From IMG/VR virus record IMGVR_UViG_2695420382_000004: DNA of 11,938 nt. The stretch is one strand, 5' to 3'. Below, one piece after another: positions 1-11,938 of this stretch. Source of the DNA: a virus. Lineage: Duplodnaviria > Heunggongvirae > Uroviricota > Caudoviricetes. Position 1 is the stretch's first letter. Each line of letters begins with the position of its first letter. The position numbers and the translations under genes were made by a program. The notes under the pieces were generated by a model. The model was not told where the DNA came from, made no database searches, and was given only the letters and a program-made list of their open reading frames with translations.

Positions 1-2184
1 CTGAAAATAGCCCGGCGTCAGCTCAATCCGCGACAGCGCTGCCGGTGCGGCAATCCGGAACGATACCGACGCCGGATCGCCCTGCTGCCCCCACGCATTT
101 ACTGCCCGGACTGTCAGCCTGTAGTTCCCCAGCGCCAGTTGTGTGAAGCGGTAAGTGGTTTCCGTCGTCCGGGCCGTGCTGACCAGCCGCTCACTGCCGT
201 CATCCGCTGTTACGGTCAGACGGAGCAGGAAGCTCACGCCCTTCACCACCTTCGGCGTGTCCCAGCGCGCCAGCACCTGATATTCCCCGCTGTCTGCGGT
301 GACTTCGGCAGTCAGGTGCTGCACCGCTGGCGGCGTGACACCATTCACCGTGCCGCTCTGGTCGCCGTCAAAGTGCGCCCCGTTATCCACGATGGCTTCT
401 TTTTCCGGCACATGCTGCACGGCGGTGATGGCATACGTGCCGTCGTCGTTCTCACGGATACTCACGCAGCGGAACAATCGCTGGTGCAGCGTCGGCAGCT
501 TCAGCCCCCACACGCTGTATTCAGCAACACCGTCAGGAACACGGCTCACTTTTACCTTCACGCCGTCGGTGACGGACTGGACCTCCACGCTGACCGGATT
601 CCCCTGCCCGTCAACCAGGCTTATCAGCGTGGTGCCGGAGGATGGCAGCGTGATTTCACGGTCGAGCGTCAGCGTCCGGGTCTGGCTGTTCACCGCCAGC
701 ACGCGCCCGCCGGTGCGGATACCGGCATAGTCATCATCGCAGATTTCAATGACATCGCCCGGTACATGACGAAGCCCTTCAGCACCCACGCTGAAATCCA
801 CGGTCTGCGTCTCCAGCAGTTCCGTTTTAATCAGCCACAGCCCGGCGCGGTGTGCCTGCCCCCGGCTGGTACAGCCAAAGGCATCCATCTTCGTGACGTT
901 ACGACCGTAACGGACAATGGCCTGCGTATCCTCCACAAGCTCTGTCGCCGTCTCCCAGCCGTTATCCGGGTCAATCCAGTTCACCTCAACGGCATTATGG
1001 CGGTCTTTCAGGGCGCTGAAACTGTAGCGGAACGGCGCGCCATCATCCGGCATCACCACATTACTGCGGTTATAGGCCCACACCTTATCCGACTGTCGGT
1101 CCTGCACGAACGTCAGCGTCTGCCCGTTCCATACCGGCATACAGCGCATCGCCGAGCAGAAATCACTGAGCACATCCCACGCCTTGCGCTGTGTGGTCAG
1201 CCAGGCATTACAGGTGATGCGCGGCTCCGTGCTGCCAAAGCCGTCCGGCACCGACTGGTCACAGTACTGGCCGATGACATACAGCGCCCATTTATCCACA
1301 TCTGCCGCACCAAGACGTTTCCCCATGCCATAGCGCGGATGGGTCAGCATATCCCACAGACACCAGGCCATGTTGTTGCTGTATGCCGGTTTTAACGTTC
1401 CGTCCCAGATACCGCTGTATTGCCGCGTCTGCGGATTATAGTTCGACGGCACCTGCAGAATGCGCCCGCGAAGATGATAATTACGGCTCACCTGCTGGCT
1501 GCCGAACTGCTCCGAATCCACCTGTACGCCGACCAGTGCCGTGTTCGGGTAGCACTGTTTCACATCGATGATTTCGGTGTATGACGACCAGAGCGTTTTG
1601 TTCTGCAGCTGGTCTGTGGTGCTGTCCGGCGTCATTCTGCGCATCCGGATATTAAACGGGCGCGGCGGCAGGTTATCCACCACCACCGAGGCCAGATACT
1701 GCGAGGTGGTTTTGCCCTTAATGGTGATGTCTTTTTCCGTCACCCAGCCACCGTTACGCTGTATCTGAACCAGCAGGCGAACTTCAGACGGATTCCTGTC
1801 TCCCTTTGAGGTGGTTTCCACCAGTGCCTGTACACCGAAGGTAAAACGCAGTCGGTCAATGTTTGCCGACGTGATGGTCCGGGTGATCGGCGTGTCATAT
1901 TTCACTTCCGTACCCAGCACCGTCTCGGAGCCGGAGGATTCAAATCCCTCCGGCGGTGACTGCTCCTGCTCACCTGCCCGGAACACCACCGTGACGCCGG
2001 AGATGTTGGTATTCCCCTCACTGTCCAGCACCGGCGTACTGTTCAGCAGCACGCTTTTTAATCCATCCACCGGACCTTCAACCGGCCCTTCGCTGATGGC
2101 ATCGATCACACTCAGCAGCTGCGTGGACTTCAGGTTGTCCTTCGCTTCGCGCGGGGTATGCCCCTTACTGCTGCCTTTACCCAT
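1..2184 (-). CDS. J: Tail tip host-specificity protein J (central tail fibre), N-terminal 728 codons; 3' end lies beyond the window start
   Basis: ATG at 2184..2182 on minus strand; my translation reads MGKGSSKGHTPREAKDNLKSTQLLSVIDAISEGPVEGPVDG... and, at the window edge (60..1), ...FRIAAPAALSRIELTPGYFQ, colinear with lambda gpJ as recalled. Open to position 1, so absent from the ORF track. About 60 bp gap after I, as in lambda. Confidence 0.93.
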   Translation of the reverse strand, partial: MGKGSSKGHTPREAKDNLKSTQLLSVIDAISEGPVEGPVDGLKSVLLNSTPVLDSEGNTNISGVTVVFRAGEQEQSPPEGFESSGSETVLGTEVKYDTPITRTITSANIDRLRFTFGVQALVETTSKGDRNPSEVRLLVQIQRNGGWVTEKDITIKGKTTSQYLASVVVDNLPPRPFNIRMRRMTPDSTTDQLQNKTLWSSYTEIIDVKQCYPNTALVGVQVDSEQFGSQQVSRNYHLRGRILQVPSNYNPQTRQYSGIWDGTLKPAYSNNMAWCLWDMLTHPRYGMGKRLGAADVDKWALYVIGQYCDQSVPDGFGSTEPRITCNAWLTTQRKAWDVLSDFCSAMRCMPVWNGQTLTFVQDRQSDKVWAYNRSNVVMPDDGAPFRYSFSALKDRHNAVEVNWIDPDNGWETATELVEDTQAIVRYGRNVTKMDAFGCTSRGQAHRAGLWLIKTELLETQTVDFSVGAEGLRHVPGDVIEICDDDYAGIRTGGRVLAVNSQTRTLTLDREITLPSSGTTLISLVDGQGNPVSVEVQSVTDGVKVKVSRVPDGVAEYSVWGLKLPTLHQRLFRCVSIRENDDGTYAITAVQHVPEKEAIVDNGAHFDGDQSGTVNGVTPPAVQHLTAEVTADSGEYQVLARWDTPKVVKGVSFLLRLTVTADDGSERLVSTARTTETTYRFTQLALGNYRLTVRAVNAWGQQGDPASVSFRIAAPAALSRIELTPGYFQ

Positions 2185-2244
2185 TCGTCATGCTCCATAA
2201 ACGATAAAACCGCCCGGAGGCGATTTCACATAAAACATTTTGCA

Positions 2245-2916
2245 TCAGCGACCAATCACCACAACCTGACCACCGTCCCCTTCGTCTGCCGTGCTGATCT
2301 CCTGAGATACCACACGTGACCCCACGCGCATTTCACCATACAGAACAGGCATAACATTGCCCTGGGCAACCATGTTATCCAGTGAGGAGAAATAGGTGTT
2401 CTGCTTACCGTTATCCGTTGTCTGTGTGCGGGGAGTTCTGGCTTTCGGTGCCAGCATCTGAGCCACACCGCCGAGCACCATACTGGCACCGAGAGAAAAC
2501 AGAATGCCGGTCATACCACCGGCACCAATGGCAGCCCCCCATGCTGCAAGGGTGGCTCCGGCGGTAAAGAATGATCCGGCAATGGCGGCTGCTCCCAGGA
2601 CAATCTGGAATACACCACCTGACTTGGCCCCGGCGACTCTGGGAACAATATGAATCACAGCGCCGTCAGGCAGAGCCTCATGTAACTGCGCCGTTAATCC
2701 GGACGTGCTAACATCCTGCCCGGCAATACGCACCTGATACCAGCCGTCGCTCAGCTTCTGACGAAACGCAGGGAGCTGTGTGGCCATCGCCCGGATGGCT
2801 TCGGCACCCGTTTTCACACGAAGGTCGATGCGGCGGCCAAATCGTTGCAAATCCCCGTAAAGGCAGATGCGTGCCATGCCCGGTGACGCCAGAGGGAGTG
2901 TGTGCGTCGCTGCCAT
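2245..2916 (-). CDS. I: Tail assembly protein I (223 aa); C-terminal Gly/Ala-rich hydrophobic segment
   Basis: 223-aa ORF colinear with lambda gpI as recalled; its 5' end overlaps the 3' end of K by 103 nt in another frame, the same overlap length I recall for lambda K/I. Confidence 0.9.
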   Translation of the reverse strand: MAATHTLPLASPGMARICLYGDLQRFGRRIDLRVKTGAEAIRAMATQLPAFRQKLSDGWYQVRIAGQDVSTSGLTAQLHEALPDGAVIHIVPRVAGAKSGGVFQIVLGAAAIAGSFFTAGATLAAWGAAIGAGGMTGILFSLGASMVLGGVAQMLAPKARTPRTQTTDNGKQNTYFSSLDNMVAQGNVMPVLYGEMRVGSRVVSQEISTADEGDGGQVVVIGR

Positions 2917-3557
2917 TTGTCGGTATACCTCTCTCGTTTGCTCAGTTGTTCAGGAATATGGTGCAGCAGCTCGCCGTCACCACAGTAAATGGCGGCATGA
3001 TTCGGCACCGATGAACCAAAACAGCACAGCAGCACATCGCCCGGCTGCGCCGCTGACAACGGCACCTGATACAGCCCTGTGGCCTCCAGATTATCCAGAT
3101 AGAGATTCTGACCGTGACGCCACCAGTCATCCTCACGATGAAAATCCGGCATCTCAATCCCCGCCAGATGGTAAGCATCCCGGAACAGCGTGTAACAGTC
3201 CGTCACCCCGTGCTCAAAGCGCCGCCCGGTAAGATGTGGCACACAGCGGAACTTGTGAATCGCCCCCCGGCAGACCAGCCACCACGGCAAATCACTCTGC
3301 ACCTGCAGCCGCCGGTCGGCCTCACTCAGCCAGGGCAGACCACCGGGGTGGCTGTGGACCAGTGCCACAATCTCACCCTGCATCTCTGCCTGCAGCCAGT
3401 CTTCCGGCGACATACGGAAATACGCCTCCGGCTCACCGGAGATATTCACGCAGGGGAAATATCTTTCCCCCTCCGGCGTTCTTACCACGAAGCCGCACGA
3501 CTCCGCTGGAGCACATCGCCGGGCGTGCGCCAGAATCGCTGATTCTGTCTCTGTCAT
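2814..3557 (-). CDS. K: Tail assembly protein K, copy 1 (247-aa form; the 199-aa lambda annotation corresponds to internal Met49); JAMM/MPN+ motif plus NlpC/P60-like region
   Basis: Starts MTETESAILAHARRCAPAESCGFV..., colinear with lambda gpK as recalled. Codons 68-81 (3315..3356) read HSHPGGLPWLSEAD, fitting HxHx7Sx2D. Starts 5 nt after the L stop. Confidence 0.9.
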   Translation of the reverse strand: MTETESAILAHARRCAPAESCGFVVRTPEGERYFPCVNISGEPEAYFRMSPEDWLQAEMQGEIVALVHSHPGGLPWLSEADRRLQVQSDLPWWLVCRGAIHKFRCVPHLTGRRFEHGVTDCYTLFRDAYHLAGIEMPDFHREDDWWRHGQNLYLDNLEATGLYQVPLSAAQPGDVLLCCFGSSVPNHAAIYCGDGELLHHIPEQLSKRERYTDKWQRRTHSLWRHRAWHASAFTGICNDLAAASTFV

Positions 3558-3562
3558 GGGAT

Positions 3563-4261
3563 TTACTGCGAAAGTTTGTTAATGGAAAGGAAGCCGCCAA
3601 AGTTGCCGACGTTATTGCGAAACTTACAGCCACTCAGGCATTTGCTGCATTTATCCTTCGTGATGTCGGACGTTGGCTGGTCATATTCATCCGCGACCGC
3701 CGGACCGTGATAACCGCACTCATCGCCGCGATAGGTCCAGGTGCAGGTGTTGGCCAGCATGATACGTCCCGGAAAAACAGCGCCATCTGTTTCCGTCGGC
3801 GTGGACAGTACAAAAGAGGCACTCACCGCGCTCAGTTCGCTGCACTGCTCAATGCGCCAGCGGCTGATCACCTCCTGCTCCGGATCGGCGTCACTGTTTC
3901 CGTTGACGAAGTTCACCGCATCCAGAAAACGGGCGTAAACCTTACGCCGGACCACCGTTCCGCCGACCAGACTCTGTAGATCTTCCGCCATCCCGGTGAC
4001 CATACCGTACAGGTTAGAAACCATCAGCGTGGGGCGCGTACTGGTGCCTTTGCCATTCAGTTCAAAACCACTCCCCTGAATGGGATACGGCTGATACTGT
4101 CGCCCCTGCCAGGTGACCGGCTCACCTTTTTCGTTCTGCTCATTACAGAAAAAATAACGTTCTCCACCGACCTCTGTCAGATCGATTTCCCAGAGCACCA
4201 CGCTGGCCGACTGCTCCGCACGGGTGCATTCATTCAGTGTTTCCTGCCGGATATCCTGCAT
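3563..4261 (-). CDS. L: Minor tail protein L, copy 1 (232 aa), C-terminal Cys cluster
   Basis: 232-aa ORF starting MQDIRQETLNE..., length and sequence match lambda gpL as recalled; C-terminal cysteines (...RGDECGYHGP...DKCSKCLSGC...). Start ATG overlaps the M stop by 1 nt (TGATG). Confidence 0.92.
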   Translation of the reverse strand: MQDIRQETLNECTRAEQSASVVLWEIDLTEVGGERYFFCNEQNEKGEPVTWQGRQYQPYPIQGSGFELNGKGTSTRPTLMVSNLYGMVTGMAEDLQSLVGGTVVRRKVYARFLDAVNFVNGNSDADPEQEVISRWRIEQCSELSAVSASFVLSTPTETDGAVFPGRIMLANTCTWTYRGDECGYHGPAVADEYDQPTSDITKDKCSKCLSGCKFRNNVGNFGGFLSINKLSQ

Positions 4262-4590
4262 CAGTTCACCACCTGTTCAAACTCTGCGCTGAACTCAACA
4301 CGCAGCATACTGACCCGCGACGACCATTTTGCGCAGGTCACCTTTATCTGCCGCCACTCATAAGGCGGCGTCCACAGAAAGGCTTTCCAGCCCCCGTGCT
4401 CTTCCAGAAACGACTCCAGTACCATGGCCTCCTCACGGGGGACAGAAAGCGTCACGCTGTACGTTTTCAGGTTGGCATTCAGCCCGGCAGGCGCTCGCTG
4501 GGAATAGCCATCACCAAAGCGCACCTTTCTTACAGAAGGGGCCGAAGCCACATCCATACCGGGTTTCACTTTCCAGCGGAAGGTTTTCAT
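4261..4590 (-). CDS. M: Minor tail protein M, copy 1 (109 aa)
   Basis: 109-aa ORF MKTFRWKVKPGMDV..., same length as lambda gpM and colinear with it as recalled; ATGA start/stop overlap with the upstream H-type reading frame. Confidence 0.92.
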   Translation of the reverse strand: MKTFRWKVKPGMDVASAPSVRKVRFGDGYSQRAPAGLNANLKTYSVTLSVPREEAMVLESFLEEHGGWKAFLWTPPYEWRQIKVTCAKWSSRVSMLRVEFSAEFEQVVN

Positions 4591-4907
4591 CGTCCACCTC
4601 CGGAGAACAGGCCACCATCACGCATCTGTGTCTGAATTTCATCACGGGCACCCTTGCGGGCCATGTCATACACGGCCTTCATCATCTGTGGACCTGGCAG
4701 ACCATTCGTACCGTCGTTCTGAATCACCACGTGATTGTTCTGATTAAAATTAATGCCTTCAGCCCGCCGCATCTGCGCCGGACTTCCGGCACCGCCCACA
4801 TAACCACCTTCCGCATAGCCGCGCATCAGCCGGTAGAGATTCCCCACGCCAATCCGGCTGGTTGCCTCCTTCGTGAAGACAAATTCACCACGGTGAACAA
4901 TCCCCGC
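4587..4907 (-). pseudogene. H: Tape measure protein H, C-terminal fragment only (last 106 codons plus stop); no N-terminus or start
   Basis: Reads AGIVHRGEFVFTKEATSRIGVGNLYRLMRGYAEGGYVG...ARDEIQTQMRDGGLFSGGGR*, colinear with the lambda gpH C-terminus as recalled. Homology begins immediately beside the 'n' at 4909; upstream of it the frame reads K-gene antisense junk. Confidence 0.85.
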
Positions 4908-4908
4908 T

Positions 4909-4909
4909 N
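4909..4909. other. Single ambiguous base marking an abrupt junction between K-internal sequence (copy 2) and H-internal sequence; probable contig or scaffold join
   Basis: Literal 'n' in the sequence. K copy-2 homology (...CCFGASVP) stops on one side and H C-terminal homology starts on the other, within about 2 nt. Confidence 0.7.
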
Positions 4910-4911
4910 TT

Positions 4912-5466
4912 CGGTACCGAAGCACCAAAGCAGCACAGCAGAATATCGCCCGCCTGTGCAGAGGACAGGGGCACCCGGTAAAAGCCGGTGACCGCCATAT
5001 TGTCCAGGTAAAGGTTCTGACCGTTGCGCCACCAGTCATCCTCGCGATGAAAATCCGGCATTTCAGTCCCCGCCAGATGATAAGCATCCCGGAACAGCGT
5101 GTAACAGTCCGTCACCCCGTGCTCAAAGCGCCGTCCTGTCAGATGTGGCACACAGCGGAATTTGTGAATGTCACCCCGGCAGACCAACCACCAGGGCAGT
5201 GCGCTTTTTATCTGCAACCGCCGGTCAGCCTCGCTCAGCCAGGGCAGCCCACCGGGATGACTGTGGACCAGTGCCACAATCTCCCCCTGCATCTCTGCCC
5301 GCAGCCAGTCTTCCGGTGCGATACGAAAATACGCCTCCGGCTCTGCGGAAATATTCACACAAGGGATATACCGCTCCCCCTCCGGCGTGCTTATCACGAA
5401 GCCGCACGACTCCGCAGGCGCACACCGCCGGGCATGTGCCAGAATCGCTGATTCAGTCTGTGTCAT
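4912..5466 (-). pseudogene. K: Tail assembly protein K, copy 2, truncated after about 185 codons (lacks the C-terminal ~60 aa including the NlpC/P60-like His region)
   Basis: ATG at 5466..5464, MTQTESAILAHARRCAPAESCGFVISTPEGERY...HSHPGGLPWLSEAD...LLCCFGASVP, then the 'n'. The JAMM motif is retained; the tail corresponding to copy 1 ...NHAAIYCGDGELLHHIPEQ... is missing. Confidence 0.85.
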
Positions 5467-5476
5467 AAACCGGGAT

Positions 5477-6175
5477 TTACTGCGAAAGTTTATTAATGGA
5501 AAGGAAACCGCCAAAATTGCCGACATTCCTGCGCAGTTCACACCCGCGCATGCACTTGCTGCATCTGTCCTTACGGATATCCGTGGTGGGGTTGTCGAAC
5601 TCATCCGCCACCGCAGGACCGTTATACCCGCATTCATCTCCCCGGTAATCCCACATACAGGTGTTCGCCAGCATGATGCGACCGGGAAACAGCGCCCCGT
5701 CCGTCTCGGTCGGTGTAGCCAGCACAAACGAGGCCGTCATGGCTGTCAGCTGCGACATCTGCTCCACCACCCAGCGGTCACTCAGCTCCTGCTCCGGGTC
5801 CGCCTCCGGATTGCCCGCAACGAAATTCACCGCATCCAGAAAACGGGCATACACCCGGCGGCGGACCACCGTGGCCCCCACCAGACTCTGCAGGTCTTCC
5901 GCCATCCCGGTGACCAGACCGAACAGATTGGACACCGTCAGCGACGGTCTGGCACTGCTGCCCCGGCCGTTCATCTCAAAGCCGCTGCCGTCAATCGGGT
6001 ATGCCTCATACTTACGCCCCTGCCAGGTGACCGGCTCCCCTTTTTCATTCAGCTCATTACAGAAAAAATACCGCTCACCACCCTGTACCGTCAGGTCGAT
6101 TTCCCAGAGTACCACCCGCGGTGACTGCTCTGACTTAACCGACTCGTTCAGACTTTCTTCGCGAATATCCTGCAT
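5477..6175 (-). CDS. L: Minor tail protein L, copy 2 (232 aa), C-terminal Cys cluster
   Basis: 232-aa ORF MQDIREESLNESVKSEQSPRVVLWEIDLT..., colinear with copy 1 and lambda gpL but clearly divergent from copy 1; cysteines conserved (...RGDECGYNGP...DRCSKCMRGC...). Confidence 0.92.
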   Translation of the reverse strand: MQDIREESLNESVKSEQSPRVVLWEIDLTVQGGERYFFCNELNEKGEPVTWQGRKYEAYPIDGSGFEMNGRGSSARPSLTVSNLFGLVTGMAEDLQSLVGATVVRRRVYARFLDAVNFVAGNPEADPEQELSDRWVVEQMSQLTAMTASFVLATPTETDGALFPGRIMLANTCMWDYRGDECGYNGPAVADEFDNPTTDIRKDRCSKCMRGCELRRNVGNFGGFLSINKLSQ

Positions 6176-6504
6176 CAGTTCACCACCTGCTTAAACTCCG
6201 CGCTGAACTCAACGCGCAACATCCCGACCCGCGCAGACCACCCGGCACAGGTCACCTTTATCTGCCGGTATGCATAGGGTGGCTTCCACAAAAATGCCTT
6301 CCAGCCACCGTGCTCTGCCAGGAACGCTTCCAGATGCCGGGCCTCCTCCCGGGTCACGGAAAGCGTCACCCTGTATGTTTTCAGGTCAGCATTCAGCCCT
6401 GCCGCCATACGCTGTGAGTACCCGTCACCAAAACGCACTTCACGCACCGATGGCTGCGAGTTCACCTCCATATCCGGCTTCACTTTCCAGCGAAAGGTTT
6501 TCAT
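6175..6504 (-). CDS. M: Minor tail protein M, copy 2 (109 aa)
   Basis: 109-aa ORF MKTFRWKVKPDMEV...; about 21 of 109 residues differ from copy 1 by my hand count; ATGA overlap with the H stop. Confidence 0.92.
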   Translation of the reverse strand: MKTFRWKVKPDMEVNSQPSVREVRFGDGYSQRMAAGLNADLKTYRVTLSVTREEARHLEAFLAEHGGWKAFLWKPPYAYRQIKVTCAGWSARVGMLRVEFSAEFKQVVN

Positions 6505-9222
6505 CCACCGCTCCCTGATAACATACCGCCATCACGCAACTGCAGCCGGAGTTCATCCTGTGCCCCCTTGCGGGCCATCTCATACACCGCTTTCATCAGC
6601 TGCGGCCCTGCCCGCCCGTTGGGGCCGTCGTTCTGAATCACCACGTGATTGTTCTGATTAAAATTAATGCCTTCAGCCCGCCGCATCTGCGCCGGACTTC
6701 CGGCACCGCCCACATAACCACCTTCCGCNNNNNNNNNNNNNNNNNNNNNNNNNNNNNNNNNNNNNNNNNNNNNNNNNGTTCTGAATCACCACGTGATTGT
6801 TCTGATTAAAATTAATGCCTTCCGCCCGCCGCATCTGCGCCGGACTTCCGGCACCGCCGACATAACCACCTTCCGCATAGCCCCGCATCAGGCGGTACAG
6901 ATTGCCGACACCAATCCGGCTGGTCGCCTCCTTCGTGAAGACAAACTCCCCGCGATGAACAATCCCCGCAGGTTCATATTTACCCCCCGTCCCCGTAAAT
7001 CCCCCGGTCGCGAAATGGAAGTTCGCCGCCGCAGCCTGAATGGCCGTCCCCGTGGAGGCAGACGCACCACCACCGAAAGCACCGCCAATGGCGCTGCCGA
7101 TACTCCCGACTATCCCCACCATCGCCTGCTTCAGAAAAATCTCTGTCAGCATGGACAGCACAGAACGGGTGAAACCACGCCAGTTCTGTTCGCTGCCGAT
7201 CAGCATCGCTGCCATATTCTGTGCAATACCGTCAAAGGTCTGCGTGGCCGCGTTTTTAACCTGCGAAAAACTGTCCGTCGCACTTTCCGCCCACTCGCCC
7301 CAGCCGGACTTCATCCCGGCCATCCAGCTTCCACGAAGCTGCTCCTCCGCAGACCAGGTGTTCTTCAGTGCAGATGTGGCCTTCGCCAGCGCAGCCGGAT
7401 TATCACCGTACACCTCACGAAGGCGCTGCTCTTCCGACTCCCGCTGCGCCTGACGGTCGGTGAGTCCGCGGGCTTTTGCGCTGATTGCCGCCTGCTTCGC
7501 GCTCTGCTGCTGTTCAAACCGCGCCGCCTGCTGTGCCAGCTCATTCAGCCGTTTCTGGTGTTCAATCTTGTCGCCCAGCTCAGCCAGCTGGCGTTTGTAC
7601 TCCAGCGTTTCTTTCTCATGGGCCAGCAGGGATTTTTCCTGCTCAGATAACTGCCGTTTCGTGGCGGCCTCTTTCAGGACCACATACTGATTTTCCGCTT
7701 TCCATAAATCACGGCGCTGCTGGCTGATTTTTTCATTCGCACCGCTGTGCTTCTCCAGCGTCCTGAGCTCAGTTTCAAGCGCCAGCAGGGCTGCATGCGC
7801 CTGGTCTTCCTGGCGCTCACCGGCAGACACCTTCACACCGGACGGCTTTTTCTGCGTCGACTCATAATCCTTTTTTGCCGACGCCATCAGCGTGTTGTAA
7901 TCCGCCTGCAGGATTTTCCCGTCTTTCAGGGCCTTATTCAGCTCTTCCTGCCGGGCGGTATATTTCTCCAGTGGCGTCAGCAGGCGCTCATACGCCTTCT
8001 GCGCCTCTCCGGTATACTTCAGCTGTGACGACTCACGCTCAGCCCTGTCCCTTGCCGCCAGTTCACCGGCTTTTTCCATATCCGACTGCAGCGTTGCCGC
8101 TGCCAGACCCAGACGGGCATTTTCCCGGTCATCCCATGCGCCCTGAAGGTTGGCCCGGAAAGAGGAGGTTTTACCGCGGCGCTGGCTCCGACTCTGGTAC
8201 CACTGCCATTTTTTATCCGCCTCATCAAATGCCTTCTGCGCACTGGCGAGCATATCCGCTGAGGATTCCGGACGACCGATATCCAGAATGGCATCCCACA
8301 TCGATTTGAATGCCTTCCCTGTTTTATCCGCCCAGGTCTCCAGTGTTCCCATGTTTTCTTTCAGGCGACGGGTCTGCTCATCAAAGCCTTTCGTGGCGAT
8401 ATCGTTCGCCGCCTGCAATGCCCCGGCCTCGTCTCCGGAACGCTGCAGCTGTGCAACATACGCAATCTGCTCTGCCGTCACGTTACGGAACTGGCGCGCC
8501 ATCGCCATCAGTCCCGACGTCGGGTCAGTGGTCAGCTTCCCGAAGGCTTCAGCGACTTTATCCACCTCCACACCGGATGCAGACGCAAAACGCGCGACAC
8601 TCTGGTTGATGGCATCAAACTGTTCACCACCACGCACACCGGCATTCACCAGGGCTGCCAGTGACTCTCTCGCCTGGTTAAACGTCAGCCCTGCTGCCTG
8701 CCCGGCTCTTGAGAGAGTCAGCATACGATCGGCAGTCAGTCCGGACTGATTACCGGAAAGAACCAGGGTTTTATTAAACGCTGAAAGCGTGGAATCTCCC
8801 TGGTACCAGGCGTACACCAGTGCACCTGTCGCCACCGCCAGCGAGGTGACCCCGACCATCGGCAGGGTGATCGCATCGGCAAGCCCCCTGAACATGGGGA
8901 TCATCCCGCCGAAGGAGTCCTTCACCTGACCGCCCTGTTGCAGCAGGATCAGCCAGGGATTCTGACCACCGGCAAGCTGCGTGGCGATATCCGTAAACTG
9001 TGCGGGCAGGGTTCGCATGGCCGCTTTATACTGCCCGACGGAAATCCCGGCTTTTTGTGCAGCCAGCGCCTGGCGGCTCAGGCCCTGTTCAACAGCACTG
9101 GCGGTTTTTCTGGCGTCGGTATCCAGACCTGAAAAATGACGCCTTACCCGGCTCATCTGCTCATCGAAACGGACAGCATCCAGACTCAGGTCAATAACAA
9201 GATCACCAACCGGCTGGGACAT
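6501..9222 (-). CDS. H: Tail tape measure protein H, interrupted by an N-run and a duplicated 99-bp flank; about 857 aa once the duplication is collapsed
   Basis: Starts MSQPVGDLVIDLSLDAVRFDEQMSRVRRHFSG..., colinear with lambda gpH (853 aa) throughout as recalled. The 70-aa ORF 6501..6713 is its C-terminus (…DGPNG…MLSGSGG*). Arithmetic: 2722 nt minus 49 N minus 99 repeated nt = 2574 = 3 x 858, in frame. Confidence 0.9.
6630..6876. repeat. 99-bp direct repeat (6630..6728 and 6778..6876, 2 mismatches) flanking the N-run; a third copy lies at 4716..4814
   Basis: Read directly: gttctgaatcaccacgtgattgttctgattaaaattaatgccttc[a/c]gcccgccgcatctgcgccggacttccggcaccgcc[c/g]acataaccaccttccgc. The pre-gap copy is identical to 4716..4814; the post-gap copy differs at 2 positions. 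Confidence 0.9.
6729..6777. other. Assembly gap (49 N) inside the H coding sequence
   Basis: Run of n characters; the ORF-track translation shows X's followed by a frame change. Confidence 0.95.
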
Positions 9223-9667
9223 ATCTCACACCTCCCGGAATCCCCGCTGAAGCCATCATTAATGCGGCATCATCCACCATGACATCCGCCACATCCGCAG
9301 ACGATAAAATATCGCGCCCTCCGTCCCCACCGAACCGGACGCCTCCGGCAAGTCCTGCCGCTTTCTGCATCAGCATTTTGTCCTCATCCGGCCTCTCCAC
9401 CTGCTCTTCCTCATGCCGGGGGACAAGCAGACTGAAATCAGAGGGATGCATATCCGGATCGCAAAAAAACAGGCTGAGTACAGCGTACGTCAGCCCGGAA
9501 AAATGCATATCCAGCTGGGTATCCTGAAAATAATGCGTGCGGTAAAAACGGTGCCAGTCGGCATATTCGGTGGATGTCATCCCGGCAAGCATGGCGCGCC
9601 AGTCGGGTCTCCCCATCTCACGCGCCAGTCTGAGGGCAAAGTTCAGCTCGCCGTCGAAGACTTTCCC
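9203..9667 (-). CDS. T: T-frame portion of the gpG-T tail assembly chaperone fusion, reached by -1 frameshift from G; not an independent gene
   Basis: ORF in the -1 frame relative to G (9643-9203 = 440, 440 mod 3 = 2) running from the slippery site to a stop at 9203; genomic position between G and H as in lambda. The in-frame Met at 9616 is probably not used. Confidence 0.8.
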   Translation of the reverse strand, partial: GKVFDGELNFALRLAREMGRPDWRAMLAGMTSTEYADWHRFYRTHYFQDTQLDMHFSGLTYAVLSLFFCDPDMHPSDFSLLVPRHEEEQVERPDEDKMLMQKAAGLAGGVRFGGDGGRDILSSADVADVMVDDAALMMASAGIPGGVRYVPAGW

Positions 9668-10074
9668 GCAGAAAAATCATCATCAGTCAGCGTGTTATTT
9701 TTCGCCACTTCAGTAATATCAGTATCCGGACGAACAGCTTCGATCATCCCGGACAGGCACAACACCACGTCTTCCGCCCGGGCAATGGCATCGGCAGGCC
9801 AGGTGGTGAGCACTTCCTGCTCTATCTTCATCACGGCCTCATTCATTGACGGTGACTGCGTTTTCTGTGGATGGTTATGCCACAGGGACATCGCCACCAG
9901 AAACGCGCCGGTTCTGACGAGATCTTCCACGCTTACCTGCAGGTTGCCGCTGGATTCTGCCTGTTCTGCACGCCGTTTCAGGAGGGCAAGATGCTCGATA
10001 CGCTGCAGCGCAGACAATTCGGAAAGCGTGACAGACACACCGTTATATTCAAATTGTTCTGTTTTCAGAAACAT
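9643..10074 (-). CDS. G: Tail assembly chaperone G (143 aa)
   Basis: MFLKTEQFEYNGVSVTLSELSALQRIEHLALLKRRAEQAES..., colinear with lambda gpG as recalled; GGAGG Shine-Dalgarno 5-9 nt upstream of the ATG (minus-strand acGGAGGtaatacATG). Confidence 0.93.
   Translation of the reverse strand: MFLKTEQFEYNGVSVTLSELSALQRIEHLALLKRRAEQAESSGNLQVSVEDLVRTGAFLVAMSLWHNHPQKTQSPSMNEAVMKIEQEVLTTWPADAIARAEDVVLCLSGMIEAVRPDTDITEVAKNNTLTDDDFSAGKSSTAS
9661..9667 (-). other. Programmed -1 ribosomal frameshift slippery heptamer G GGA AAG (G frame) / GGG AAA G (T frame)
   Basis: Plus strand 9661..9667 is ctttccc, so minus strand is GGGAAAG. The G frame reads GCG GGA AAG (…SAGK…), 6 codons before the G stop; established lambda G-T mechanism. 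Confidence 0.85.
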
Positions 10075-10087
10075 GTATTACCTCCGT

Positions 10088-10840
10088 TTACCCTGCAGCG
10101 CCCGCTTCAGTAACGGTGACTTCAGCCACTGCGGCGAACTGACCATTTCCGCTCACCACAGGGATCTGCACCTTACCTGTCGCCACGCCGTTTACCGTAA
10201 TTGTCATATCTTTCACACTAATGGTGGCTTTCGACGGATCGGCGGAAACCGCTCTGAACGTCTTGTCGGTTGCACTTTCCGGCTCAAAAGAAACCGTCAG
10301 GGTGGTTGTTTTCCCTTTTGCCACCGTACCGGATGTCGGCGTCACCTTAATCGCACTGACCGGCGTAATTTTGCTGCGTTCTTCCGCTACAGAAGGTTTA
10401 CCCACGTTAGTGACTTTCACCGTGCGGGTGATCACTTCTTTCGCCGTCACGGCCTTACCGATACTGCTGACCCAGCCACGAAACACATCCACCGTGCCAT
10501 TCGGAAAACGGATTTTATAGGCCCGGACATCGCCGCTTTCAAACCAGCCTATAAGCCCTTTCTGGCCTTCCTCTCCCGGTTTCCAGGCCAGCGTAAAACT
10601 GGTATCACCTGCAGATTTCTGCCCCTGCCCGGTCGCGCTCCAGTCCGCGTCTTCATCATCCAGGTAGTTATCATCATAGGATTCAGCCGTCATCTCGCCC
10701 GGCGTCAGATCCTTCACCTTAGCCAGTCGCTGCCAGTCATCGTCTGACAACGGGTTTGCATAAGCATCAGCCTTGCCGTTGTAAACCCACAGAGTGGTAC
10801 CGGCACCTTTTACCGGCTCCAGGGGATTTGGTGTTGCCAT
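10088..10840 (-). CDS. V: Major tail tube protein V (250 aa) with C-terminal Ig-like region
   Basis: [42 protein letters not shown]..., colinear with lambda gpV as recalled; the C-terminal roughly 90 aa are Thr/Val/Ser-rich (…[12 protein letters not shown]…[22 protein letters not shown]…), typical of a Big_2-like domain. Confidence 0.93.
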
Positions 10841-10847
10841 ATCGTCC

Positions 10848-11243
10848 TCACATCTCGTATGTAATGGAATAAGTCAGATCCGCAGAGCTCCATAACGCCA
10901 TATCGTCATCACGACGATACTCATAGCCCTGCGTAACCATCGTGGTAATCAGTCCTGCCAGTGCAGGGATCGCAGTCATCGCCGGATAAATCCGGCTTTC
11001 CATCCACTGATCGAGCTCCGAATCAGGTACCTGTGCCGGTAAAAACACCTCAATATGCAGTGTGGCCCGCCAGGTATCTGCATCCAGCTCTTCACCGGTA
11101 TACTCTGCATCCGTCAGATAAACCGCGATCGCAGGAAAATCCTCTTCGTCAAAAACAACGGGGCGACCATCAAACAGCGTCGCCCCGTGTTCATGCTGCT
11201 CGAGTGCATCCAGCACTGCGGCACGAATGTCAGTGTGTTTCAT
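10848..11243 (-). CDS. U: Tail tube terminator protein U (131 aa)
   Basis: [44 protein letters not shown]...LTYSITYEM, same length as lambda gpU and colinear with it as recalled. Confidence 0.93.
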
Positions 11244-11815
11244 CGTTTTATCGCAATCCTCAGTTGTTGTTTCAGCGCGTATGCCAGTTCTTTAGGCAGG
11301 CGTTCACGCCGGATACGGTCAACATTCTCATCAAATGCCTGTTTCAGTGGGGCCGCCATCGGGATTTTCACCACCTGAATGGGAAGGCGATTACGCTTTT
11401 TCCTTCCCTTGTCGTCATTGCCCTCCTCATATCTGGCCTGGGGAAGACGTTGCATAACATGCCAGCGCCCATTATTTAATCGCTGGATAAATGCCCGCTG
11501 ATAACGATGCTGACCGGCTTTGAGTATGCTGTTCGGACGACGCCCCAGCATTCTGATCCCCAGCTTAATCACAGGGAGATCACCGCGGTTAACGATAATT
11601 CTGGCATTCGGATTTCTGACCGTCGCCCGTTTCAGTCTGGACCGTTCCTTTACCAGTTTCCGTCTCACCCTGGTTTCCCGGGCAACCTGTGACGAAGACT
11701 GATTAATCGCCGTTGTGGCCACGCGGTTAATGGTCATTGCAGAAGCAGCCGGAATGGCGTTTTTACGAACCCGGCTCAGATTGTCAATCGCCTGATCAAG
11801 CCCTTTTATCGCCAT
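11240..11815 (-). CDS. Z: Tail completion protein Z (191 aa)
   Basis: MAIKGLDQAIDNLSRVRKNAIPAASAMTINRVATTAINQSSSQVARETRVRRKLVKER...RIAIKR, colinear with lambda gpZ as recalled; ATGA overlap with the U start. Confidence 0.92.
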   Translation of the reverse strand: MAIKGLDQAIDNLSRVRKNAIPAASAMTINRVATTAINQSSSQVARETRVRRKLVKERSRLKRATVRNPNARIIVNRGDLPVIKLGIRMLGRRPNSILKAGQHRYQRAFIQRLNNGRWHVMQRLPQARYEEGNDDKGRKKRNRLPIQVVKIPMAAPLKQAFDENVDRIRRERLPKELAYALKQQLRIAIKR

Positions 11816-11829
11816 AATTCACCCTGCGT

Positions 11830-11938
11830 TTATCGTCGCCGGTTAACTGCGGGTGGTTGCCCACGGTTGAGCCAGAGATAACAGCTGCCCCCGTCATCCG
11901 GAGATGTCAGCGCCAGTGATATAAGACGGTAATTCGCC
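11830..11938 (-). CDS. FII: Head-tail joining protein FII, C-terminal 35 codons plus stop; 5' end beyond the window
   Basis: Hand translation of the minus strand gives ANYRLISLALTSPDDGGSCYLWLNRGQPPAVNRRR*, matching the lambda gpFII C-terminus (...SPDDGGSCHLWLGRGVPPAVNRRR) as recalled; 14-nt spacer before the Z ATG. Confidence 0.8.
   Translation of the reverse strand, partial: ANYRLISLALTSPDDGGSCYLWLNRGQPPAVNRRR

What the first reader, a model, noticed from the sequence alone, without database searches (positions are those of the whole stretch)
4587..6504. Second, divergent copy of the M-L-K tail module inserted between H and the M-L-K-I-J block
Lambda-like tail clusters normally carry one copy each of M, L and K. 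Here the minus-strand order is H, M2, L2, K2 (truncated), 'n', H C-terminal fragment, M1, L1, K1, I, J. The copies are not identical (M about 80% aa identity by hand count, clear divergence in L and K), so this is not a simple collapsed-read duplication. It is either a scaffold chimera of two paralogous lambdoid prophages, which I favour because both junctions coincide with n characters, or a real recombinational mosaic or tandem duplication within a prophage tail region.
Basis: partly seen in the sequence, partly recalled or inferred. Interest (0 to 1): 0.6.

Follow-up and report, generated by a model that had tools for sequence, protein, structure and literature searches.

The report
False scaffold join of two prophages
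The apparent second copy of the phage tail genes M, L and K is an assembly artefact: a short-read scaffold of a Shigella sonnei draft genome strung together pieces of two different lambda-like prophages that lie about 556 kb apart in finished genomes.

Summary
On the minus strand the window reads Z-U-V-G-T-H | 49 N | H 3' end-M2-L2-K2 (185 codons) | 1 N | H 3' fragment-M1-L1-K1-I-J. The repeat period is 1914 nt. The copies share 81% (M), 77% (L) and 88% (K) amino-acid identity.

It is not a real duplication. The window is the whole 11,938-bp scaffold CXCV01000128.1, made of three contigs. A (6778-11938) and B (4910-6728) are essentially identical to one S. sonnei prophage remnant. There they are contiguous, overlap by 99 nt, and carry one M-L-K set. 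Merging them restores an intact 2574-nt H; as written, H is frameshifted. C (1-4908) is 99.98% identical to a different prophage of S. sonnei Ss046, where its own full-length H precedes it. One finished chromosome (CP032523.1) carries both prophages 555,908 bp apart.

The K2-to-H junction occurs in 0 of 5,426 complete E. coli genomes and 0 of 50,697 phage records. Its truncated K product occurs on one contig only, which is this record. B is the alternative arm of an assembly-graph bubble bounded by 50- and 53-nt exact repeats.

Interest is low.

The parts
6778..11938 (-). Contig A: Z, U, V, G, T and the first 2445 nt of tape-measure gene H of prophage 1
   Evidence: Pfam hits. It is 99.96% identical (2 mismatches in 5161) to L026 positions 8903-14063 (CP032523.1) and to L028 (S. 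sonnei 53G, HE616528.1).
6729..6777 (.). Spurious 49-N scaffold gap inside H; the true gap is -99 nt
   Evidence: N run. In L026, L028 and L001 the flanks A and B overlap by 99 nt. Merging them gives an intact 2574-nt H, 852/858 aa identical to the L001 tape-measure protein. As written, H is 2722 nt and out of frame.
6630..6728 (-). Start of contig B: a 99-nt duplicate of the end of A (6778-6876). Positions 6675 and 6711 carry the prophage-2 bases, so this contig end is itself chimeric
   Evidence: B's only two mismatches to the finished prophage 1 are at 6711 and 6675.
4910..6728 (-). Contig B: H 3' end (6501-6728), M2 (6175-6504), L2 (5477-6175) and K2 codons 1-185 (4910-5466), all from prophage 1
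   Evidence: Outside the 99-nt overlap it is 100% identical to L026 positions 13965-15783. There K continues to 247 aa and I follows.
4909..4909 (.). Single N: the false join between K2 of prophage 1 and the H 3' end of prophage 2
   Evidence: The K2 frame hits a stop 7 codons after the N. The junction is absent from 5,426 complete E. coli genomes and 50,697 phage records. The truncated product occurs only on this record.
1..4908 (-). Contig C: last 322 nt of prophage 2's H (4587-4908), M1 (4261-4590), L1 (3563-4261), K1 (2814-3557), I (2245-2916) and the J 5' part (1-2187)
   Evidence: It has 1 mismatch in 4908 to S. sonnei Ss046 (L016 positions 8650-13557). There it is preceded by a full 853-aa H and by T, G, V, U, Z genes only 78-82% identical to contig A.
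6625..6674 (.). 50-nt exact repeat shared by the two prophages in the H 3' end (identical to 4711-4760); upstream node of the assembly bubble
5081..5133 (.). 53-nt exact repeat shared by the two prophages in K (identical to 3172-3224); downstream node of the assembly bubble

Best explanation
The duplicated M-L-K module is a scaffolding artefact in a short-read draft assembly of a Shigella sonnei-type genome. That genome carries two paralogous lambda-like prophages. Prophage 1 is an IS-truncated remnant reading Z-U-V-G-T-H-M2-L2-K2-I-J. Prophage 2 is a full cluster reading ...H-M1-L1-K1-I-J. In the H-to-K region the two share only two exact repeats of 50 nt or more, one in the H 3' end and one in K. 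These make the two M-L-K stretches alternative arms of a bubble in the assembly graph. Shown: contigs A and B are one continuous piece of prophage 1 whose ends overlap by 99 nt but were left unmerged with 49 N between them. Shown: B's leading 54 nt took the prophage-2 variant across the 50-nt repeat. Shown: contig C belongs to prophage 2, about 556 kb away in a finished genome. Inferred: a greedy paired-read scaffolder and gap filler, probably an SSPACE/GapFiller type of pipeline, laid the two bubble arms end to end. It then marked the non-positive gap between B and C with a single N.
For: The window equals the entire 11,938-bp record CXCV01000128.1, and both internal junctions are N characters. 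A and B map contiguously with a 99-nt overlap on finished chromosomes at 99.96% and 99.89% identity. B's only two mismatches lie in the overlap and match prophage 2. Merging A and B restores an intact 2574-nt H, whereas the written sequence is frameshifted. C matches Ss046 with 1 mismatch in 4908 and is preceded there by its own different H. Both prophages sit on CP032523.1, 555,908 bp apart, each with one M-L-K set. All fetched contexts of the exact L2, K1 and V proteins show single-copy clusters. The junction is in 0 of 5,426 complete E. coli genomes and 0 of 50,697 phage records. The truncated K2 product is on exactly one contig of the collection, although K1 is indexed in 5,044 blocks and V in 1,143. 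B spans the interval between the only two exact repeats of 50 nt or more. The Sanger Velvet/SSPACE/GapFiller pipeline was run on 299 S. sonnei samples, and its authors state that these greedy tools can make false joins (PMC5320598).
Against: No reads were available, so nothing directly shows that no read pair or long read spans position 4909. B's low end (4910) and C's start (4908) do not fall on an exact repeat between the two prophages. The exact reason the contigs stop there is therefore inferred (arbitrary stops of gap-filling extension) and not shown. The attribution to the SSPACE/GapFiller pipeline rests only on neighbouring accession prefixes: CXB* records are Holt 2012 S. sonnei drafts. 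No paper naming this record was found.
Confidence: 0.93

Rival explanations
1. A real rearrangement private to this strain. Illegitimate recombination joined mid-K2 of prophage 1 to the H 3' end of prophage 2. This could be, for example, the novel joint of a ~556-kb tandem duplication between two prophages in the same orientation, or a local insertion. The result would be a true tandem M-L-K arrangement.
For: The scaffolder did link B to C, which implies some read pairs connected them. Both prophages are in the same orientation on CP032523.1. There is weak microhomology at the joint: GAACC in K2 against GAGCC in H. Lambdoid tail regions are naturally mosaic; E. coli STEC005 has an A-type H joined to C-type M-L-K.
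Against: The joint is an N, not sequence. It falls at non-homologous positions (K codon 185 against H codon about 747), leaving a truncated K2 and a promoterless H fragment. It is unique among all assemblies searched. The neighbouring A-B junction in the same scaffold is demonstrably artefactual. B's start is chimeric.
Confidence: 0.04
2. The sequence is literally correct across the 49-N gap as well. H would then carry a real internal 148-nt duplication (99 nt plus 49 unknown bases), and the whole window would be one degenerate prophage with duplicated tail genes.
For: Only the written scaffold supports this. One finished genome (L034, CP029794.1) does show an internal repeat expansion elsewhere in this H gene.
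Against: 148 nt is not a multiple of 3 and frameshifts H. The two flanks overlap exactly as in every finished genome. The second 99-nt copy carries the other prophage's bases.
Confidence: 0.01
3. A mixed culture or contaminated library. The two M-L-K versions would come from two different strains rather than two prophages of one genome.
For: Divergent paralogous contigs can arise from mixed samples.
Against: This is unnecessary. Single finished chromosomes carry both prophages at 99.9-100% identity to the window's pieces.
Confidence: 0.02

Closest known systems
Scaffold false join or unmerged bubble duplication in short-read assemblies (greedy scaffolders and gap fillers such as SSPACE and GapFiller)
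   Same: The junctions are N characters. The contig ends flanking one gap overlap by 99 nt. The two arms are paralogous sequences bounded by short exact repeats. The pieces map to separate loci in finished genomes. The pipeline's authors warn of false joins (PMC5320598).
   Different: The assembler used for this record was not verified. The duplicated arms are paralogous prophages of a haploid genome, not haplotypes.
Phage lambda tail-tip gene block H-M-L-K-I-J (single copy of each gene)
   Same: Each of the two underlying prophages has exactly this order. Pfam families match: TMP_2/Tape_meas_lam_C, Phage_min_tail, Phage_tail_L, Prok-JAB+NLPC_P60, Lambda_tail_I and the gpJ domains. A GGGAAAG site lies at the end of G.
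   Different: Nothing is biologically different once the scaffold is split. Prophage 1 is an IS-truncated remnant in finished S. sonnei genomes.
Natural mosaicism among lambdoid prophages through recombination in conserved islands
   Same: E. coli STEC005 carries an A-type Z-H joined to a C-type M-L-K-I-J. The crossover lies inside the same conserved H 3' island.
   Different: Such mosaics replace one module with another at homologous positions and keep a single copy. They do not produce a K-to-H junction or tandem copies.

Membership tests
Lambda-like tail-tip assembly module (H, M, L, K, I, J) | Gene products match the Pfam families of lambda gpH, gpM, gpL, gpK, gpI and gpJ, in that order on one strand | tested here: met
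   All matches are above the curated cut-offs, for both copies of M and L and for K1. K2 matches only the JAB domain because it is cut.
Lambda-like tail-tip assembly module (H, M, L, K, I, J) | One copy of each gene per prophage | tested here: met
   This holds for the underlying prophages. Every finished-genome context fetched (L001-L003, L006-L016, L018-L035) has a single M-L-K set.
Real tandem segmental duplication | Uninterrupted sequence across the novel joint | tested here: not met
   The joint is an N at 4909, and the other boundary is 49 N.
Real tandem segmental duplication | The joint is reproducible in independent assemblies or genomes of the lineage | tested here: not met
   0 of 5,426 complete E. 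coli genomes, 0 of 50,697 phage records, and a single contig (this record) for the joint's product.
Real tandem segmental duplication | Reads or read pairs span the joint, and depth is consistent with two copies at one locus | not testable with these tools
   No read data are available.
Scaffolding artefact (false join) | The flanks of the join map at about 100% identity to distant loci in finished genomes of the same lineage | tested here: met
   B's end is at 4,282,264 and C's start at 4,838,172 of CP032523.1, 555,908 bp apart.
Scaffolding artefact (false join) | The contig ends flanking a gap overlap (negative true gap), and removing the gap restores an intact gene | tested here: met
   99-nt overlap. 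The merged H is 2574 nt and intact, 852/858 aa identical to the reference.
Scaffolding artefact (false join) | The misplaced contig is bounded by exact repeats shared with the paralogous locus | tested here: met
   The 50-nt and 53-nt repeats are the only exact matches of 50 nt or more. B runs from 54 nt before the first to 171 nt after the second. The contig ends themselves are not exactly at the repeat edges.

The most novel reading that the evidence does not exclude
The isolate behind GCA_001252355.1 really carries an illegitimate K2-to-H joint between its two lambdoid prophages. This could be the novel junction of a ~556-kb tandem duplication or a transposed tail-gene segment, so that two diverged M-L-K sets sit in tandem.
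Probability: 0.04. Interest if true: 0.3.

Novelty: not a real feature. Interest (0 to 1): 0.05.

Why it matters
The finding carries no biological novelty. It is a clean worked example of how paralogous prophages produce artefactual tandem gene duplications, truncated genes (K2) and frameshifted genes (H) in public draft assemblies. Gene callers have already propagated the resulting chimeric proteins into protein databases: the 193-aa K2 product containing an X and the 849-aa H read through the N run. Pangenome or prophage surveys that count tail-gene copy number or pseudogenes from such scaffolds would be misled.

Tried and rejected
(1) Real tandem duplication. I searched a 601-nt junction-spanning query against complete E. 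coli genomes and against phages and found no spanning place. The two partial hits, H111 and H112, are prophage remnants with M and L deleted, in canonical H-then-K order, not the window's K-then-H order.
(2) The idea that B's low end and C's start are repeat boundaries between the two prophages. This was rejected, because the local alignment shows only a 17-nt identical run there and no exact match of 28 nt or more nearby.
(3) The idea that three prophages are needed because A's end and B's start differ at 2 sites. This was rejected, because apart from those two sites B is identical to the same finished prophage as A, and the two sites carry the prophage-2 bases.
(4) The E. coli complete-genome collection alone gave only 97% identity for contig C, because it excludes Shigella. 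The exact-protein look-ups solved this.
(5) Attempts to tie the record to a publication or pipeline failed. Supplements of PMC5320598 and a full-text search for CXCV01 / GCA_001252355 found nothing relevant.

Full report
**What is in the window**

The 11,938-nt window contains 50 non-ACGT characters: a single N at 4909 and 49 N at 6729-6777. All genes lie on the minus strand. Pfam assigns them as follows:
- Z 11240-11815, U 10848-11243, V 10088-10840, G 9643-10074, T 9203-9616
- the first 2445 nt of tape-measure gene H, 6778-9222
- after the N run: a 228-nt H 3' end (6501-6728), M2 6175-6504, L2 5477-6175, and the first 185 codons of K2 (4910-5466; JAB domain only)
- after the single N: a 322-nt H 3' fragment (4587-4908), M1 4261-4590, L1 3563-4261, K1 2814-3557 (JAB + NlpC/P60), I 2245-2916, and the 5' part of J (1-2187)

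Direct repeats with a 1914-nt period (1909 nt for the K pair) link the two modules at 76-84% nt identity.

**Three contigs**

The N characters split the window into A (6778-11938), B (4910-6728) and C (1-4908). A look-up of the truncated K2 product (193 aa, containing an X) found it on exactly one contig of the whole public collection: CXCV01000128.1 of assembly GCA_001252355.1. That record is 11,938 bp long and is the exact reverse complement of the window. So the window is an entire small scaffold of a draft assembly.

**Where the pieces belong**

Against complete E. coli genomes the best matches were B at 99.6%, A at 99.2% and C at only 97.2%. The best whole-window places span about 9.8-10.2 kb of the record for 11.9 kb of query, which means one M-L-K set.

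Exact-protein look-ups then led to Shigella sonnei.
- **K1** occurs in Ss046 (CP000038.1) and many other chromosomes (strain names from PMC5447701). C differs from Ss046 by 1 base in 4908. It is preceded there by its own complete 853-aa H and by T, G, V, U and Z genes that are only 78-82% identical to contig A.
- **V** of contig A occurs in S. sonnei 53G (HE616528.1), CP032523.1 and others. A matches these at 99.96% (L026 positions 8903-14063). B matches at 99.89% (L026 positions 13965-15783). A and B are therefore contiguous there, overlap by 99 nt, and are followed by the rest of a 247-aa K and by I.
- **CP032523.1** carries both prophages. The position matching B's end and the position matching C's start are 555,908 bp apart.

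Every finished context fetched has a single M-L-K set.

**The 49-N junction**

This is a true adjacency with a spurious gap. The last 99 nt of A and the first 99 nt of B are the same stretch of H. Merging them gives an intact 2574-nt ORF, 852/858 aa identical to the tape-measure protein of the E. coli ST648 prophage. The sequence as written is 2722 nt and out of frame.

B's only two mismatches to the finished prophage are at 6711 and 6675, inside this overlap. At both sites B carries the bases of the other prophage, identical to contig C and to L003. The leading end of B therefore switched prophage across a 50-nt exact repeat. That is how a greedy assembler or gap filler behaves. It probably also explains why the two contig ends, differing at two sites, were not merged.

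**The single-N junction**

This is the false join. It connects codon 185 of K2 to a point 322 nt before the end of the other prophage's H, which are non-homologous positions. The K2 frame stops 7 codons after the N, and the H fragment has no start.
- A 601-nt query centred on the joint found no spanning place in 5,426 complete E. coli genomes or in 50,697 phage records.
- The two partial hits are remnants with M and L deleted, in canonical order.
- The joint's product is unique to this record, although K1 is indexed in 5,044 blocks and V in 1,143.

**How the artefact probably arose (inferred)**

Within H to K, the two prophages share only two exact matches of 50 nt or more: 50 nt in the H 3' end (window 6625-6674 = 4711-4760) and 53 nt in K (5081-5133 = 3172-3224). 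B runs from 54 nt before the first to 171 nt after the second. It is thus the alternative arm of a graph bubble whose other arm lies inside C.

A paired-read scaffolder that sees A linked to both arms, and both arms linked to downstream sequence, can lay them end to end. A non-positive gap estimate is commonly written as a single n (my own recollection of SSPACE-type behaviour, not tested here). The Sanger Velvet/SSPACE/GapFiller pipeline was applied to 299 S. sonnei samples, and its authors note that these greedy tools can make false joins (PMC5320598). Accession prefixes next to this one (CXBN, CXBR, CXBV) are S. sonnei drafts from Holt et al. 2012. I could not verify that this record came from that pipeline.

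The contig ends at 4910 and 4908 are not at exact repeats. I attribute them to arbitrary stops of contig extension, which is not shown.

**Rivals**

A real strain-private illegitimate joint cannot be excluded without reads. It would need a non-homologous K-to-H breakpoint that falls exactly on an N, in a scaffold whose other junction is demonstrably artefactual, and that appears in no other assembly. I give it about 4%. A literal 148-nt duplication inside H (about 1%) and a mixed sample (about 2%) are less likely still.

**Comparison with known systems and verdict**

Each underlying prophage is an ordinary lambda-type tail cluster with one copy each of H, M, L, K, I and J. Natural mosaics do exist: E. 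coli STEC005 has an A-type H joined to C-type M-L-K, with the crossover in the same conserved H island. These are replacements at homologous positions, not tandem copies.

The finding is not a real feature.

Noticed in passing
window 9661-9667 (minus strand), near the end of G (9643-10074) and just upstream of T (9203-9616): A GGGAAAG heptamer sits at the 3' end of G. This is the slippery sequence lambda uses for the programmed -1 frameshift that makes gpGT, so the G/GT arrangement looks conserved here.
   Followed up: partly
L026/L028 positions 5896-8835 (CP032523.1, S. sonnei 53G), upstream of the Z gene that matches window 11240-11815: In finished S. sonnei genomes prophage 1 is a remnant. 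IS transposase genes replace the head genes directly upstream of Z, and J is split or degraded. This probably explains why the scaffold ends at 11938.
   Followed up: partly
L006 (E. coli STEC005, NZ_CP041437.1 3018714-3031554): This is a natural mosaic prophage. Contig A (96.6%) and contig C (95.9%) map contiguously with a 192-nt overlap, so an A-type H is joined to a C-type M-L-K-I-J. The conserved island in the H 3' end looks like a genuine recombination point among lambdoid prophages.
   Followed up: partly
L004 positions 6814-7928 and L005 positions 6814-10061 (E. coli ES9 and EM20-18-50): These are prophage remnants in which M and L are deleted, so that a truncated tape-measure gene lies next to K.
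   Followed up: partly
L034 positions 12878-14417 (CP029794.1): The H gene of this finished genome aligns to contig A in three pieces with overlapping query ranges (1-1031, 905-1313, 1187-5161), and H is called as two ORFs (428 and 385 aa). This may be an internal repeat expansion of about 350 nt in the tape measure, or an assembly error.
   Followed up: no
window 139-1395 (+ strand), antisense to J: A 418-aa TTG-start ORF lies antisense to J. The public record calls it as a gene (L036 positions 10544-11800) with no Pfam hit. It is probably a spurious antisense ORF in a GC-rich gene.
   Followed up: no
window 4870-4950 (minus strand): There is short microhomology at the false joint. K2 continues GAACC in the finished genome, and prophage 2's H has GAGCC immediately before contig C's first base. 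This may be chance.
   Followed up: partly
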